Source of the DNA: a virus
Lineage: Duplodnaviria > Heunggongvirae > Uroviricota > Caudoviricetes
IMG/VR virus record: IMGVR_UViG_2541047681_000006
DNA length: 46,617 nt
Direction: 5' to 3' (one strand)
Position 1 is the first letter of the stretch. The number at the start of each line of letters is the position of its first letter. The position numbers and the translations under genes are program-made. The notes beneath the pieces were generated by a model. It was given only the letters and a program-made list of their open reading frames with translations, searched no databases and was not told the DNA's origin. Of this stretch, positions 19,476 through 46,617 are shown one piece after another.

Positions 19476-19972
19476 TGCCTCCATCATTACGAAAAGCCGT
19501 TGCTGCTGCTATTGGTGGCGGAGCAATTGCTATAGCATCAGTGTTAATCACTGGCCCAAGTGGTAACGATGGTCTGGAAGGTGTCAGCTACATACCATAC
19601 AAAGATATTGTTGGTGTATGGACTGTATGTCACGGGCATACAGGAAAAGACATCATGCTCGGTAAAACGTATACCAAAGCAGAATGCAAAGCCCTCCTGA
19701 ATAAAGACCTTGCCACGGTCGCCAGACAAATTAACCCGTACATCAAAGTCGATATACCGGAAACAATGCGCGGCGCTCTTTACTCATTCGTTTACAACGT
19801 GGGTGCTGGCAATTTCAGAACATCGACGCTTCTTCGCAAAATAAACCAGGGCGATATCAAAGGCGCATGTGATCAGCTACGTCGCTGGACATATGCTGGC
19901 GGTAAGCAATGGAAAGGTCTCATGACTCGTCGTGAGATTGAGCGTGAAATCTGTTTGTGGGGTCAGCAATGA
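19475..19972 (+). CDS. R: SAR endolysin (lysozyme R21 type)
   Basis: 165-aa ORF with N-terminal Gly/Ala-rich signal-anchor-release segment ([18 protein letters not shown]) and lysozyme-like core; ATG overlaps the holin stop. Confidence 0.9.
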
Positions 19973-43400: not shown

Positions 43401-43917
43401 TATCAGCGGTAACGTGAACGCGAACTCCGGGACGCTCAACAACGTCACGATTAATCAGAACTGTCGGATTCTGGGAAAACTGTCAGCTAACCAGATTGAA
43501 GGTGATATTGTCAAAACGGTGGGAAAAGCCTTTCCGAGAAATGGCAGTTATGCCAGCGGTACAATAACGGTCACTGTGTACGATGACCAGGCTTTTGACC
43601 GTCAGATAGTAGTCCCCCCCGTTCTGTTTCGTGGGGGTAAGCATGAAAACTTCAACAGCAACAACCAACAGTCATACTGGTATTCAACCTGTAAGCTGCA
43701 GGTACTGAAGAACGGACAGGAAATCTTTCAGCAACCCGCGACGGATGTCAGCAGGGTATTTTCATCAGTCATTGATATGCCTGCCGGACACGGCCATGTC
43801 ACCCTGACTTTCAATGTTTCTTCATATGGTGCTAATAACTGGACGCCAACGACCAGTATCAGCGACCTTCTTGTTGTTGTGATGAAGAAATCTACAGCCG
43901 GTATCAGTATCAGTTGA
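40435..43917 (+). CDS. J: central tail fiber / host-specificity protein gpJ
   Basis: 1160-aa ORF; N-terminus matches lambda J ([22 protein letters not shown]...); fibronectin-III-like central region. Confidence 0.95.
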
Positions 43918-43936
43918 ATTTTATAACCCAGATACG

Positions 43937-43964
43937 GGCGCCAGAAATGGCGCCTTTTTTATTT
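43937..43964 (+). terminator. intrinsic terminator after J
   Basis: GGCGCC-AGAAAT-GGCGCC stem-loop followed by TTTTTTATTT. Confidence 0.6.
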
Positions 43965-43975
43965 GTGGAGTGAAT

Positions 43976-46036
43976 ATGGCAGTACAGATTTCAGGCGTGC
44001 TGAAAGACGGTGCAGGAAAACCGATACAGAACTGCACCATTCAGCTCAAAGCAAAACGTAACAGCACCACGGTTGTGGTGAACACGGTGGCCTCAGAAAA
44101 TCCGGATGAAGCCGGACGTTACAGCATGGATGTCGAGTATGGCCAGTACAGCGTTATCCTGCTGGTTGAAGGTTTTCCGCCTTCACATGCCGGGGCCATC
44201 ACCGTGTATGAGGATTCTAAGCCGGGGACATTGAATGATTTTCTGGGCGCTGCAACAGAAGATGATGTTCGTCCGGAGGCACTGTATCGTTTTGAAAAGA
44301 TGGTGGAAGAGGTGGCACGCAACGCTGAAGCCGCCTCTCAGAGCGCAGCGGCAGCAAAGAAATCAGAAACAGCAGCGGCATCGTCCAGGAATGCGGCGAA
44401 AACATCAGAGACGAATGCAGGTAACAGCGCGAAAGCGGCAGCTTCTTCAAAAACAGCCGCACAAAACGCAGCAACAGCGGCAGAACGTTCAGAGACAAAT
44501 GCCCGTGCGTCAGAAGAAGCCTCCGCAGACAGTGAAGAGGCTTCCCGCCGTAATGCAGAGTCAGCCGCTGAAAATGCCGGAGTCGCCACCACAAAAGCGC
44601 GGGAGGCCGCAGCAGACGCAACAAAGGCCGGGCAGAAAAAGGATGAGGCTCTGTCGGCAGCGACACGGGCTGAAAAGGCGGCAGACCGCGCAGAAGTCGC
44701 AGCGGAAGTGACTGCAGAGCCCTATGCGAATATAGTGCCGCCGCTGCCTGATGTGTGGATACCGTTTAACGATTCACTGGATATGATTGCGGGTTTTTCT
44801 CCGGGCTATAAAAAAATAGCTATTGGTGACGATGTGGTTCAGGTCGCCAGTGATAAACAGGTTAATTTCAGTCGCGCATCAACGGCAACATATATCAACA
44901 AATCTGGCGAACTGAAAACGGCGGAAATTAATGAGCCGCGATTTGAGTGTGATGGCCTGCTTATTGAGGGACAAAGAACGAACTACATGCTCAATTCGGA
45001 AAGTCCAGCCAGCTGGGGGAAGTCATCAAACATGGATGTGCCCGAAACCGGGACAGATAGTTTTGGTTTTACTTATGGAAAGTTTGTCTGCAACGATTCT
45101 CTGGTTGGGCAAACTTCGGCTATTAATATGGCATCAATTGCTGCAACAAAGTCAGTTGATGTCTCAGGCGATAACAAGTACGTGACAACCTCATGCCGTT
45201 TTAAAACAGAACGACAGGTAAGGTTACGTATACGGTTTGATAAGTATGATGGTAGTGCAACAACTTTTCTTGGCGATGCGTACATTGATACGCAAACGCT
45301 TGAAATTAATATGACAGGTGGGGCTGCCGGCAGAATTACGGCACGAGTCAGGAAGGATAAGACCACAGGCTGGATTTTTGCAGAGGCAACGATTCAGGCA
45401 ATTGATGGTGAGTTAAAAATAGGCTCTCAGATACAGTATTCTCCTGAGCGGGGTGGGGCAACAGTATCTGGTGACTATATTTATCTTGCCACCCCACAAG
45501 TAGAGAATGGGCCGTGTGTATCATCATTTATTATTTCAGGAGGCAGCGCAACGACAAGAGCCAGTGATTTGGTTAGTATCCCCACCAGAAATAATCTTTA
45601 TAAGTTACCATTTACTTTTTTACTTGAGATTCATAAAAACTGGGATATTGCACCAAACGCCGCACCCCGCGTGTGGGATATAGCAGCAGCCAATACCGGG
45701 CAATCAGCAATTGCAGCAATCAACAGAGGTAGTGGTAAGTTATATATGAGTCTGTCAAACCCTTCAGGCTTGTATGTTAATAGCGCAGCGACAGATGTAT
45801 TTGCAGAGAAAACCACATTTGGATGTATTGCAAAAGCTGATGGTCACTTTCATGTGGTGACAAATGGTAAAGCGGTTAATGAAGTTTATTGTGAATATAA
45901 TGGTGTGACCGCTGATAAAAATATCCGATTTGGAGGGCAGACGAATACTGGAGAACGACATCTGTTTGGCCATATTCGCAATTTCCGCATATGGCATAAA
46001 GAATTAAATGACAGGCAATTAAAAGAGGTCGTATGA
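43976..46036 (+). CDS. stf: side tail fiber protein (Stf-like) with divergent C-terminal domain
   Basis: N-terminal ~90 aa match lambda Stf (MAVQISGVLKDGAGKPIQNCTIQLKA...); Ala-rich repetitive stalk; C-terminal ~400 aa not lambda-like. Confidence 0.8.
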   Translation: MAVQISGVLKDGAGKPIQNCTIQLKAKRNSTTVVVNTVASENPDEAGRYSMDVEYGQYSVILLVEGFPPSHAGAITVYEDSKPGTLNDFLGAATEDDVRPEALYRFEKMVEEVARNAEAASQSAAAAKKSETAAASSRNAAKTSETNAGNSAKAAASSKTAAQNAATAAERSETNARASEEASADSEEASRRNAESAAENAGVATTKAREAAADATKAGQKKDEALSAATRAEKAADRAEVAAEVTAEPYANIVPPLPDVWIPFNDSLDMIAGFSPGYKKIAIGDDVVQVASDKQVNFSRASTATYINKSGELKTAEINEPRFECDGLLIEGQRTNYMLNSESPASWGKSSNMDVPETGTDSFGFTYGKFVCNDSLVGQTSAINMASIAATKSVDVSGDNKYVTTSCRFKTERQVRLRIRFDKYDGSATTFLGDAYIDTQTLEINMTGGAAGRITARVRKDKTTGWIFAEATIQAIDGELKIGSQIQYSPERGGATVSGDYIYLATPQVENGPCVSSFIISGGSATTRASDLVSIPTRNNLYKLPFTFLLEIHKNWDIAPNAAPRVWDIAAANTGQSAIAAINRGSGKLYMSLSNPSGLYVNSAATDVFAEKTTFGCIAKADGHFHVVTNGKAVNEVYCEYNGVTADKNIRFGGQTNTGERHLFGHIRNFRIWHKELNDRQLKEVV

Positions 46037-46311
46037 AAGATTTAACTTTGAAGTTTCATGACAAACTGCAGTTTAAGGCCTTCCTGTCATCTCTTGACTG
46101 GGAGGAGGATGAAGACCTCCAGAATAAACTGTTAGTCGATGAAATTGGTTTCACCTACACAGAAACAGGGGTAACAGAAGAGGGAGAACCTGTCTGTGTC
46201 CGGAATGACGGTTATTTTGTCAACATTCGCATTCTTGATGACTTGTTTGATGTTTCTGTATTCTCTGATTATGTCGTGGAGCTGGAAACACCGCTTCGGG
46301 AATGGAGCTGA
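46033..46311 (+). CDS. hypothetical acidic protein downstream of stf
   Basis: 92-aa ORF overlapping the stf stop by 4 nt; does not resemble Tfa tail-fiber assembly proteins. Confidence 0.35.
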   Translation: MKDLTLKFHDKLQFKAFLSSLDWEEDEDLQNKLLVDEIGFTYTETGVTEEGEPVCVRNDGYFVNIRILDDLFDVSVFSDYVVELETPLREWS

Positions 46312-46323
46312 AAGGAGGAAATA

Positions 46324-46617
46324 ATGGATATAAGCCCCTTACTTCATGCGCTTTGTGCTGTGGCTGCGCAGATACTGGTTGGTCTTTTTACCGGAAACTG
46401 GGCTTACGGAGCGATAGCCGGTTGTACGTTCTTCATTGCGCGTGAACATACCCAGGCAGAATATCGCTGGATTGAAATGTTCGGGCATGGCAAGCGAATG
46501 AATATGCCGTGGTGGGGCGGTTTTGATCCGCGAGCTTGGGATGTGGCAAGCCTGATGGATTTTGCTGTGCCGGTGGTGGCGTGTCTGCTGGTCTGGCTGT
46601 TGGTTAATCGTGGGTGA
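46324..46617 (+). CDS. hypothetical small membrane protein
   Basis: 97-aa ORF with RBS-like GGAGGAA upstream; two hydrophobic segments at the N- and C-termini; stop at the window end. Confidence 0.4.
   Translation: MDISPLLHALCAVAAQILVGLFTGNWAYGAIAGCTFFIAREHTQAEYRWIEMFGHGKRMNMPWWGGFDPRAWDVASLMDFAVPVVACLLVWLLVNRG

What the first reader, a model, noticed from the sequence alone, without database searches (positions are those of the whole stretch)
43976..46617. Side tail fibre with lambda-like N-terminus but a divergent C-terminal domain; no lom, no recognisable tfa; two small ORFs downstream
Seen in sequence: stf follows J directly after a terminator, with no lom gene between them. The first ~90 aa match lambda Stf, followed by an Ala-rich repetitive stalk and a ~400-aa C-terminal domain that is not lambda-like and looks more AT-rich by eye. 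The next ORF (92 aa, acidic) does not resemble Tfa chaperones and is followed by a small membrane-protein ORF. Inference: a horizontally exchanged receptor-binding domain with a non-canonical partner protein.
Basis: partly seen in the sequence, partly recalled or inferred. Interest (0 to 1): 0.5.

Follow-up and report, generated by a model that had tools for sequence, protein, structure and literature searches.

The report
Phage-21-type side tail fibre cassette
This is the ordinary, already sequenced side-tail-fibre region of a phage-21-like lambdoid prophage of E. coli: a lambda-type fibre base carrying a swapped-in sugar-binding-type tip, followed by two small conserved genes of unknown function that travel with such tips in many phages.

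Summary
A terminator sits between J and stf. There is no lom and no tfa anywhere in the window. The Stf base is lambda-like, the roughly 425-aa C-terminal part is not, and that part is AT-rich (GC3 0.32-0.38, against 0.66 in J). Two real downstream genes follow: a 92-aa acidic protein (p92) and a 97-aa membrane protein (p97).

The region is not new. It is 100% identical to phage 21 (OL657228) and ev017. At least 80% of the cassette is present in 453 of 5,426 complete E. coli genomes.

The C-terminal module has two domains: one like the RcGTA head-spike fibre, and one galectin/LamG-like. It moves horizontally and also occurs on P2-like, T1-like, T5-like, Nonagvirus, Seuratvirus and Dhillonvirus fibres. 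Its T5-like homologue, IrisVonRoten Gp22, is described in the literature.

p92 directly followed the fibre gene in all 77 IMG/VR loci with an intact stf 3' end, and in each phage region I opened. It is under purifying selection and has no known structural analogue. It is most likely a Tfa-unrelated fibre accessory protein, but its function is not shown.

p97 belongs to a broad proteobacterial family. In temperate phages it lies beside receptor-binding genes of several types, which suggests a lysogenic-conversion or exclusion gene.

Interest is low to moderate.

The parts
43936..43965 (+). Intrinsic-terminator-like hairpin and T-run between J and stf
   Evidence: 8-bp stem with 6 GC pairs, 4-nt loop, T-rich tail. 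Sequence read. Annotated as a terminator in the identical phage 21 record.
43976..46036 (+). stf, an intact 686-aa side tail fibre gene. The ORF finder's GTG at 43970 is an alternative start; the ATG at 43976 has a GGAG ribosome-binding site at 43967-43970.
   Evidence: 100% identical to phage 21 CPT_21_22 'side tail fiber'. The cluster of the identical protein has 2,232 member sequences.
43976..44365 (+). Stf aa 1-130: lambda-type collar and attachment domain with linker and the start of the coiled coil
   Evidence: Pfam PF08400 covers aa 3-133 at E 1e-68. 83/94 identical to the lambda Stf 1-94 sequence of PDB 9e7m. In Ur-lambda, twelve copies of this domain form a collar at the gpV-gpM junction (PMC12617516).
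44366..44761 (+). Stf aa 131-262: Ala/Glu/Ser-rich stalk (predicted coiled coil)
   Evidence: 43 Ala in 132 residues. AT skew about 0.5. No DNA tandem repeat. Weak similarity to the lambda orf-401 stalk.
44762..45634 (+). Stf aa 263-553: conserved junction (PLPDVWIPFNDSLDM) followed by C-terminal domain 1, which resembles the RcGTA head-spike fibre
   Evidence: NCBIfam NF048003 GTA_spike_fiber covers aa 331-531 at E 1e-14, 55 bits against a cutoff of 36. A profile hit to the Rcc01080 sequence (PDB 6tb9) has E 2e-7. GC3 is 0.375.
45635..46033 (+). Stf aa 554-686: C-terminal domain 2, LamG/galectin-like, ending in the conserved motif RHLFGHIRNFRIWHKxLxDxQ
   Evidence: Pfam Laminin_G_3 covers aa 562-683 at E 5e-5, below the gathering score. 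The homologous domain of IrisVonRoten Gp22 is described as galectin-like (PMC11990801). It is the most variable segment between alleles. GC3 is 0.32.
46033..46311 (+). p92: a 92-aa acidic cytoplasmic-type protein (PHROG 1361), translationally coupled to stf through an ATGA overlap
   Evidence: AlphaFold2 pLDDT 90. pN well below pS. Directly downstream of the fibre gene in 77/77 IMG/VR loci with an intact stf 3' end, and in the 10 cassettes compared (the window and nine fetched loci); 145 phage records hold a homologue.
46324..46617 (+). p97: a 97-aa small membrane protein (PHROG 1443) with an AAGGAGG ribosome-binding site at 46312-46318 and the invariant motifs REHTQAEYRWI and MPWWGGFD
   Evidence: dN/dS is about 0.17-0.2. 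The identical phage 21 gene is annotated 'putative membrane protein'.

Best explanation
This is the host-range cassette at the end of the late operon of a phage-21/ev017-type lambdoid prophage.

**Stf (shown by homology).** Stf is a chimeric trimeric side fibre. Its first ~130-160 residues are the lambda-type collar domain that clamps the fibre to the tail-tube/tip junction. An Ala-rich coiled-coil stalk follows.

**C-terminal module (mobility shown, function inferred).** The last ~425 residues are a horizontally mobile two-domain module: a domain homologous to the capsule-binding head-spike fibre of the Rhodobacter gene transfer agent, then a galectin/LamG-like beta-sandwich. I infer that this module binds a surface polysaccharide (O-antigen or capsule) for the reversible first adsorption step. 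J remains the terminal-receptor binder.

**p92 (inferred).** It is translated by coupling to stf. It is most likely a dedicated accessory of this fibre tip, taking the genomic place of Tfa. It would be either a folding or assembly factor, or a small structural cap or adaptor. In relatives, a second distal fibre with a conserved N-terminal docking peptide is encoded right after p92. That gene is absent here, so this fibre is probably unbranched.

**p97 (weakest inference).** It is a small inner-membrane protein found in temperate phages next to receptor-binding genes of several types, and as a chromosomal gene in some proteobacteria. It is most likely a lysogen-benefit gene, such as envelope or receptor modification or superinfection exclusion, and not a virion assembly factor.
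For: **Identity and annotation.** The region is 100% identical to phage 21 and ev017.

**N-terminus.** PF08400 matches, and the first 94 residues are 88% identical to the solved lambda collar domain.

**C-terminal module.**
- NCBIfam GTA_spike_fiber scores above its cutoff.
- A profile hit to Rcc01080 has E 2e-7.
- Rcc01080 mediates attachment to the polysaccharide capsule (PMC7296036).
- The homologue IrisVonRoten Gp22 is 46% identical over aa 127-686, and 52% over the C-terminal 439 aa. It is described as a proximal lateral fibre with a galectin-like C-terminal domain (PMC11990801).

**Mobility.**
- The same module sits on a P2-like fibre, followed by p92 and p97 and then a Tfa remnant.
- It occurs in 230 phage records of many genera.
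- Alleles are mosaic, with domains 1 and 2 reassorting independently.
- Its GC3 is low.

**p92.**
- It has strict synteny and an ATGA overlap with the fibre gene across temperate and virulent phages.
- pN is well below pS.
- It is retained in cassettes that lack fibre B.
- Its divergence tracks domain 1 (rho 0.81) more closely than the physically adjacent domain 2 (rho 0.37).
- Distant versions of the trio occur in Comamonas, Pantoea and Chelativorans prophages.

**p97.**
- It was not found in the virulent phages I inspected that carry the same fibre and p92. The p97 hits above about 60% identity are all temperate Escherichia phages; the weaker hits include short partial matches in other phages that I did not follow up.
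- It is present after P22-like tailspikes, after a P2-type Tfa and after J-like proteins.
- It stands alone in Aeromonas chromosomes.
Against: - No binding, assembly or exclusion function was tested.
- The AlphaFold2 model of the Stf C-terminal part failed (pLDDT 50), so the folds of both domains rest on sequence profiles and on a literature description of a homologue.
- Laminin_G_3 scores below Pfam's gathering threshold.
- Only residues 2-10 of Rcc01080 are actually resolved in the PDB entries.
- One allele pair decouples p92 from the variable part of the fibre. PhiR47_2 is 93% identical to the window in p92 but only 20-50% identical over Stf aa 360-640.
- The correlation is not corrected for shared ancestry.
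- The same p97 allele accompanies very different fibre tips and other receptor-binding-protein types. Any receptor-specific role is therefore unlikely.
- Its co-occurrence with the fibre and p92 in distant prophages could instead mean a role linked to the fibre.
- Stf itself is dispensable for plaque formation in relatives that carry IS insertions in it.
Confidence: 0.6

Rival explanations
1. p92 is not a chaperone of the fibre tip. It is the hinge or adaptor that docks a second, distal fibre (fibre B) onto this proximal fibre. In this prophage fibre B has been lost, so p92 is a leftover or merely caps the docking site.
For: - In Tritos-type lambdoids, IrisVonRoten (T5-like), tonn (T1-like), JenP1, SA126VB and Ioannina, p92 lies exactly between the fibre and a second fibre gene.
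- In five of those six phages (all but Ioannina) fibre B shares the N-terminal motif M.T.T.IP.DITKLKS although the bodies differ, which implies a common docking partner.
- Many E. coli prophages have fibre B (234 or 346 aa) between p92 and p97.
- The literature places IrisVonRoten Gp24 on the proximal fibre Gp22.
Against: - p92 stays intact and under purifying selection in the abundant cassettes without fibre B. Their protein clusters have 398 and 174 member sequences, and pN is 0.25 against pS 0.88 between two alleles that both lack fibre B.
- The published model attaches Gp24 to the proximal fibre without assigning a role to the small protein.
- No docking was tested here.
Confidence: 0.25
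2. The Stf C-terminal module is an enzyme, a glycan hydrolase or lyase of the concanavalin-A-like glucanase superfamily, and not a lectin-type binder. It would cut through O-antigen or capsule as a tailspike does.
For: The Pfam family that matches weakly is named 'Concanavalin A-like lectin/glucanases superfamily'. Many lateral receptor-binding proteins of coliphages are depolymerases.
Against: - There was no hit to any glycoside hydrolase or lyase family in Pfam or NCBIfam.
- The related RcGTA head fibre is described as a binder.
- The BASEL authors describe the homologous domain as galectin-like and as a possible additional receptor-binding domain.
- No catalytic motif was identified. The structure model was too poor to check.
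Confidence: 0.1
3. p92 and p97 are morons unrelated to the fibre, for example anti-defence, defence or toxin-related cargo, that only hitch-hike at a recombination hotspot at the end of the late operon.
For: - The end of the tail-fibre operon is a classic moron site. In phage 21 the sitABCD operon follows directly.
- p97 has stand-alone chromosomal homologues.
Against: - There are no PADLOC hits.
- p92 is present in strictly virulent T1-, T5- and 9g-like phages, always ATGA- or ATG-coupled to the same type of fibre gene. That pattern is not moron-like.
- For p97 this reading partly merges with the best explanation.
Confidence: 0.1
4. The two downstream ORFs are non-coding chance ORFs.
For: They are short and have no Pfam family.
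Against: - Both have strong Shine-Dalgarno sequences.
- Both match PHROG families at E 1e-42 and 1e-58.
- They have dozens to hundreds of homologues with conserved residues.
- pN is well below pS.
- p92 gives a confident fold prediction.
Confidence: 0.01

Closest known systems
Escherichia phage 21 (OL657228) genes CPT_21_22, CPT_21_23 and CPT_21_24; also phage ev017 and PhiR57_1/PhiR63_2
   Same: Window 43900-46617 is 100% identical in DNA to phage 21 and ev017. Gene order and spacing are the same, and so is the terminator upstream of stf. The first 25 kb of the window is 99.7% identical to PhiR57_1.
   Different: Nothing differs in this region. In those records sitDCBA follows p97, whereas the window stops at the p97 stop codon.
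Phage lambda Stf (orf-401 + orf-314) with Tfa and Lom
   Same: The position after J is the same. The N-terminal collar domain is 88% identical over 94 aa and 74% over 158 aa. Both have an Ala-rich coiled-coil stalk. The role as a side fibre for reversible adsorption is presumably shared.
   Different: There is no lom. The distal half, which in lambda is a gp37-like shaft and receptor-binding domain, is replaced by an unrelated two-domain module. There is no Tfa (Caudo_TAP) gene; a 92-aa unrelated protein takes its place.
Lateral tail fibre locus of Tequintavirus IrisVonRoten (Bas32): Gp22 proximal fibre with galectin-like domain, Gp23, and the T-shaped fibre Gp24 (PMC11990801)
   Same: Gp22 is 46% identical to this Stf over aa 127-686, and 52% over the C-terminal 439 aa, including the C-terminal motif. 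Gp23 is a p92 homologue (49%) with the same 4-nt overlap.
   Different: The N-terminal attachment domain is T5-type, not lambda-type. A distal fibre (Gp24) follows p92 there and is absent here. There is no p97 in that virulent phage.
RcGTA head-spike fibre Rcc01080 (GhsB), NCBIfam NF048003
   Same: Stf aa ~300-546 is homologous to Rcc01080 residues 45-285. Rcc01080 is reported to bind a polysaccharide capsule.
   Different: Rcc01080 is a single chain attached to capsid vertices by an N-terminal Leu-Gly repeat. Here the domain is the distal part of a tail fibre. Identity is low, and no solved structure covers the shared domain.
Tfa/gp38/gpG-type tail fibre assembly proteins (Pfam Caudo_TAP, PF02413)
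   Same: p92 has the same genomic position and the same translational coupling immediately after the fibre gene. In the P2-like prophage, the cassette replaced the 3' end of H and the 5' end of G, leaving a Caudo_TAP remnant.
   Different: There is no sequence similarity. p92 is half the size and has a different predicted fold, an alpha/beta two-layer sandwich. No function has been demonstrated.
Lysogenic-conversion and superinfection-exclusion genes next to receptor-binding genes (cor after J, llp next to pb5, gtrABC or oac after P22-type tailspikes)
   Same: p97 is a small membrane protein found in temperate phages directly after the receptor-binding genes. This includes the tailspike-to-int interval of a P22-like phage, which is where conversion genes normally sit.
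   Different: There is no sequence relationship to any of them. It is not a lipoprotein. The same allele accompanies unrelated receptor-binding proteins. It has conserved chromosomal homologues in Aeromonas and sphingomonads. Its function is untested.

Membership tests
Lambda-type side tail fibre (Stf) | N-terminal prophage tail fibre domain (Pfam PF08400) that forms the collar on the tail tip | tested here: met
   PF08400 covers aa 3-133 at E 1e-68, 230 bits against a cutoff of 26.6. 83/94 identical to the lambda Stf 1-94 sequence of PDB 9e7m.
Lambda-type side tail fibre (Stf) | Lambda-like distal shaft and receptor-binding domain (the orf-314 part), which depends on Tfa | tested here: not met
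   blastp against lambda orf-314 finds no significant match (best E 8.5). tblastn of orf-314 and Tfa finds nothing in the window.
Tail fibre assembly protein Tfa (Pfam Caudo_TAP, PF02413) | Sequence membership of the protein encoded directly after the fibre gene | tested here: not met
   p92 has no Pfam hit except a chance LUD_dom match at E 0.064. There is no NCBIfam hit and no blastp match to lambda Tfa.
Phage head spike fibre domain (NCBIfam NF048003, GTA_spike_fiber) | Score above the curated cutoff | tested here: met
   55.3 bits against a cutoff of 36, E 1e-14, aa 331-531 matching profile positions 1-181 of 182. A profile hit to the Rcc01080 sequence has E 2e-7.
Concanavalin-A-like lectin/LamG domain (Pfam Laminin_G_3, PF13385) | Score above the gathering threshold, or a confident beta-sandwich fold | tested here: inconclusive
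   23.9 bits against a gathering score of 27.6, E 5e-5, aa 562-683. The AlphaFold2 model was too poor to judge, with pLDDT 50. The homologous domain in IrisVonRoten Gp22 is reported as galectin-like.
Intramolecular-chaperone fibres (Peptidase_S74) | C-terminal S74 chaperone domain | tested here: not met
   Stf has no PF13884 hit. The domain is present in fibre B of Tritos, and that gene is absent from the window.
Branched or two-protein lateral fibre (proximal fibre + p92 + distal fibre B) | A second fibre gene with the N-terminal motif M.T.T.IP.DITKLKS directly after p92 | tested here: not met
   Only 12 nt separate p92 from p97 in the window. The motif is found in Tritos, IrisVonRoten, tonn, JenP1 and SA126VB and in about 40 IMG/VR loci, but not in the window-type cassettes.
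PHROG 1361 (p92 family) | Full-length profile match, and position directly after a fibre gene with this type of C-terminal module | tested here: met
   E 8e-42 over positions 1-91 of 92. The synteny holds in 77/77 IMG/VR loci with an intact stf 3' end and in the 10 cassettes compared (the window and nine fetched loci).
PHROG 1443 (p97 family) | Full-length profile match and the invariant motifs REHTQAEYRWI and MPWWGGFD | tested here: met
   E 2e-58 over positions 1-96 of 97. The invariant columns are listed.
Known anti-phage defence proteins (PADLOC) | Any profile match | tested here: not met
   No hits for p92, p97 or the Stf C-terminal part at E up to 0.1.
Superinfection-exclusion or lysogenic-conversion membrane proteins | Expression from the prophage, and a change in the receptor or envelope or a block of incoming phage | not testable with these tools
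   Only positional evidence is available.

The most novel reading that the evidence does not exclude
p92 founds a Tfa-unrelated family of tail-fibre accessory proteins, acting as chaperone or structural adaptor. It would be obligatorily coupled to fibre tips of the GTA-spike-fibre/galectin type, across temperate and virulent siphophages and P2-like myophages of alpha-, beta- and gammaproteobacteria. p97 would be a general envelope-modifying or exclusion factor that temperate phages keep next to their receptor-binding genes. Neither role has been described in the literature I could search.
Probability: 0.45. Interest if true: 0.5.

Novelty: already known. Interest (0 to 1): 0.3.

Why it matters
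**As a sequence feature it is ordinary.** It is a very common E. coli prophage host-range cassette, already deposited and annotated in phage 21.

**Its practical value is as a lead.**
- The fibre tip is one of the most widespread lateral-fibre modules of coliphages. It occurs in 230 phage records, and at least 80% of the cassette is present in 453 of 5,426 complete E. coli genomes.
- Groups that engineer lambda Stf chimeras for DNA delivery would need to know whether p92 must be co-expressed for this tip to assemble.
- p97 is a highly conserved small membrane protein with invariant polar motifs and no known function. It sits beside receptor-binding genes of three phage morphotypes, which makes it a cheap candidate for a new lysogenic-conversion or exclusion activity.

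Tried and rejected
- **Stf C-terminal structure.** AlphaFold2 on aa 250-688 with a 19-sequence alignment gave pLDDT 50.
- **Fold searches with the p92 model.**
  - BFVD returned only uncharacterised family members.
  - The afdb50 library was unavailable.
- **Profile search of p92 against 1.84 billion representatives.**
  - It found 80 proteins, mostly small phage proteins of the same family.
  - I rejected the multi-stretch hits in very long proteins (PKD-like and TPR repeat proteins). They look like compositional or repeat artefacts.
- **PDB sequence search with the p92 profile.** It gave only a chance-level hit, Tetrahymena p19 at E 0.02.
- **PADLOC.** Nothing.
- **The search for related loci with the broad p92 alignment.** It failed because the alignment has no conserved stretch long enough to search with.
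- **P0168 look-up.** Not on record.
- **Literature.**
  - I found no paper on the phage 21 side fibre or its downstream genes.
  - The Eligo Stf-chimera papers use other tips.
  - The DT57C LtfA/LtfB branched fibres are a different, phiEco32-type system with S74 domains.
- **DNA tandem repeats in the stalk.** None.
- **Promoter scan.** No more promoter-like sites than expected by chance, so there is no evidence that p97 has its own promoter.
- **p97 as a holin.** I considered and dropped this. The lysis cassettes lie elsewhere in these phages, and the family also occurs as a chromosomal gene.


Full report
**What is there**

J ends at 43917. A GC-rich hairpin followed by a T-run lies at 43936-43965. 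A GGAG ribosome-binding site is at 43967-43970 and the stf ATG is at 43976.

stf runs to 46036 and encodes 686 aa. Its TGA overlaps the ATG of a 92-aa ORF, p92 (46033-46311), which is preceded by AAGAGG. Twelve bases further on, behind AAGGAGG, a 97-aa ORF, p97 (46324-46617), ends exactly at the window's last base.

tblastn with lambda Lom, orf-314 and Tfa finds nothing anywhere in the window. J is 83% identical to lambda J.

**Identity**

Window 43900-46617 is 100% identical to Escherichia phage 21 (OL657228) and ev017, and 99.7-99.9% identical to PhiR57_1 and PhiR63_2. The first 25 kb of the window is 99.7% identical to PhiR57_1, so the window is a lambdoid genome in prophage order.

In phage 21 the three genes are annotated 'side tail fiber', 'hypothetical protein' and 'putative membrane protein'. 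They are followed by sitDCBA on the other strand.

At least 80% of the cassette 44717-46617 is present in 453 of 5,426 complete E. coli genomes, and parts of it in 1,909. The E. coli type strain carries a 100% identical copy.

**Stf anatomy**

- **Collar domain.** Pfam phage_tail_N covers aa 3-133 (E 1e-68). The first 94 aa are 83/94 identical to the lambda Stf collar domain solved in PDB 9e7m/9mgh. Similarity to lambda orf-401 runs to aa 158 at 74%. In Ur-lambda, twelve copies of this domain form a collar at the gpV-gpM junction and carry four trimeric fibres (PMC12617516). By homology the same attachment applies here.
- **Stalk.** Residues 131-262 are an Ala/Glu/Ser-rich stalk (43 Ala in 132 residues) with no DNA tandem repeat.
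- **Junction.** From the invariant junction PLPDVWIPFNDSLDM (about aa 265) onward, the protein is unrelated to lambda.
- **Domain 1.** NCBIfam GTA_spike_fiber matches aa 331-531 above its cutoff. A profile of the family hits the sequence of the RcGTA head-spike fibre Rcc01080 at E 2e-7. That fibre mediates attachment to the Rhodobacter polysaccharide capsule, although only its residues 2-10 are resolved structurally (PMC7296036).
- **Domain 2.** The last ~130 aa match Laminin_G_3 weakly, below the gathering score.
- **Published homologue.** IrisVonRoten Gp22 is 46% identical over aa 127-686, and 52% over the C-terminal 439 aa. It is described as a proximal lateral fibre with a protruding galectin-like C-terminal domain that may be an additional receptor-binding domain (PMC11990801).
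- **Failed model.** My own AlphaFold2 model of this part failed (pLDDT 50) and was not used.

**Horizontal mobility**

GC3 falls from 0.66 in J, through 0.52 and 0.46 in the Stf N-terminus and stalk, to 0.375 and 0.32 in the two C-terminal domains (profile).

The same module occurs on fibres with other N-termini:
- A P2-like prophage carries a PF12571-type fibre with an 88% identical tip. It is followed by p92 and p97 with the same spacing as in the window, and then by a 74-aa Caudo_TAP remnant.
- In T1-like, T5-like, Nonagvirus, Seuratvirus and Dhillonvirus phages the fibres are 33-48% identical to this Stf, and in other lambdoids about 60%. The tip itself occurs in 230 phage records in all, including rV5-like phages at about 39%.

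Alleles are mosaics. Tritos shares domain 1 (90-95%) but not domain 2 (27-32%) with the window. PhiR47_2 is nearly identical up to aa 280 and only 20-50% identical over aa 360-640.

The receptor itself remains inferred.

**p92**

It is a real gene:
- PHROG 1361 matches at E 8e-42.
- There are 48 close homologues and 80 representatives at 50% clustering in 1.84 billion proteins.
- Conserved motifs include GYFVNIR and P.R.W.
- pN is well below pS, for example 0.25 against 0.88 versus ev243.
- The AlphaFold2 model is confident: pLDDT 90, a small alpha/beta sandwich.
- It is acidic (pI 4.1) and has no signal peptide or transmembrane segment.

It has no Pfam, NCBIfam or PADLOC family and no informative structural neighbour.

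Its one strong property is synteny:
- 145 phage records hold a homologue. In 38 of the 40 rows listed, the match lies against or overlaps an annotated tail fibre or tail protein gene.
- In every region I opened, that fibre ends with the same type of C-terminal module and the same closing motif.
- In 77 of 77 IMG/VR loci with an intact stf 3' end, p92 is directly downstream. The three exceptions have a truncated stf.
- Distant versions of fibre plus p92-like protein also occur in Comamonas, Pantoea and Chelativorans prophages.

In most virulent relatives, and in Tritos-type lambdoids, p92 is followed by a second fibre gene (fibre B). Fibre B bodies differ, but in five of the six phages examined (all but Ioannina) its N-terminus is conserved as M.T.T.IP.DITKLKS. 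The window has no fibre B.

Because p92 is retained and constrained without fibre B, I favour a role tied to the fibre tip itself, as an assembly factor or a structural cap. The pure adaptor-for-fibre-B role is the main rival.

Across 55 distinct cassettes, p92 divergence tracks domain 1 (rho 0.81) more closely than the physically adjacent domain 2 (rho 0.37). This is suggestive only, because it is not corrected for ancestry and the PhiR47_2 pair is an exception.

**p97**

PHROG 1443 matches at E 2e-58. There are more than 577 homologues at 57-69% identity in Escherichia, Aeromonas, Comamonas, Leclercia, Salmonella and Citrobacter. A genome scan extends the family to Pantoea, Halomonas, sphingomonads, Devosia and Desulfovibrio.

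The central 40 residues are almost invariant: REHTQAEYRWI, then MPWWGGFD. dN/dS is about 0.17-0.2. Hydrophobic segments lie at about aa 4-24, 25-39 and 76-96. The topology is unresolved (the phage 21 record quotes TMHMM as two TMDs).

Where it occurs:
- Among phage records, the hits above about 60% identity are all temperate Escherichia phages, and it is not present in the virulent phages I inspected that carry the same fibre and p92. The weaker hits include short partial matches in Aeromonas, Salmonella and other Escherichia phages that I did not follow up.
- After p92, or after fibre B, in lambdoids.
- After the fibre in a P2-like prophage.
- Directly after a P22-like tailspike, in the interval before int (JEP4).
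- After Tfa in Halomonas phiHAP-1.
- After tailspike-like proteins in Leclercia and Desulfovibrio.
- After a giant J-like protein in Comamonas.
- Between the fibre and a p92-like gene in Chelativorans.
- As a stand-alone chromosomal gene in Aeromonas, next to pirin, and in Sphingomonas, next to ligA.

This pattern fits a host-derived gene kept by temperate phages next to their receptor-binding genes, which is the position where conversion and exclusion genes usually sit. That is an inference from position only. The recurrence of the trio in distant prophages leaves open a fibre-linked role.

**Verdict**

The object is a known and extremely common cassette. The fibre type is recognised by curated models and discussed in the recent literature. 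The two small genes remain uncharacterised in everything I could search.

The conserved fibre-p92 coupling and the association of p97 with receptor-binding genes are modest, testable leads. They are not surprises.

Noticed in passing
L007 5587-8003 (phage 1W; the same in 3W, 4A7 and 4C10); E. coli chromosomes H166 and H167: An element of three consecutive ORFs annotated 'mobile element protein', which I take to be IS66-type, interrupts stf at about codon 643. The last 46 codons, p92 and p97 lie downstream of it. IS3-family insertions occur in the same cassette in two E. coli chromosomes. These phages were still isolated as plaque formers, so Stf is dispensable there, as it is in lambda PaPa.
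   Followed up: partly
window 46617 (end); L016-L044: The window stops exactly at the p97 stop codon. About 20 IMG/VR viral contigs end at the same point, 584 nt after the stf end. In phage 21 and PhiR63_2 the next genes are the sitDCBA iron/manganese transporter operon on the opposite strand. The shared end probably reflects a prophage-boundary call and not a biological end.
   Followed up: partly
L009 6242-7282, L010 5289-7013, L011 5292-5966, L012 4289-5344, L014 4278-6038: The second fibre genes that follow p92 in Tritos, IrisVonRoten, tonn, JenP1 and SA126VB have unrelated bodies. One has an S74 chaperone domain and one is the published T-shaped Gp24. They nevertheless share the N-terminus M.T.T.IP.DITKLKS, which looks like a common docking peptide. 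Ioannina's second fibre gene starts differently.
   Followed up: partly
window 44762-46033 compared with L008 and L009: The two C-terminal domains of Stf reassort independently between alleles. Tritos shares domain 1 only with the window. PhiR47_2 differs in both domains yet keeps a near-identical p92 and an identical p97.
   Followed up: yes
L107 2051-3794, L116 1797-3794, L126 2026-4090: Distant versions of the trio (a fibre with a PHROG 5939 tip, a p92-like protein and p97) occur in Comamonas kerstersii, Pantoea and Chelativorans prophages. In Chelativorans the order is fibre, p97, then the p92-like gene.
   Followed up: partly
L006 6001-6309; L104, L106 and L110: In Aeromonas rivipollensis (L006) the p97 homologue is a stand-alone chromosomal gene downstream of a pirin gene, outside any prophage. 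Three other Aeromonas species (L104, L106, L110) have an upstream ORF of similar size (292-330 aa) that I did not annotate. This suggests a host origin for the phage gene.
   Followed up: partly
L005 1-5769: A Comamonas testosteroni prophage encodes a J-like tail tip protein of about 2,520 aa. A 72-aa ORF and a p97 homologue follow it.
   Followed up: no
window about 44461-44474 (minus strand); phage 21 record 19719-19732: The phage 21 record annotates a CII-binding-site pattern (TTGYN6TTGY) inside stf on the minus strand. It is a pattern match only. A terminator-like hairpin on the minus strand lies at the same place (44472-44456).
   Followed up: no
window 1-25000: The annotation of the near-identical PhiR57_1 lists an OmpD/NmpC-type porin gene among the early-region genes. 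This would be another moron in this prophage.
   Followed up: no
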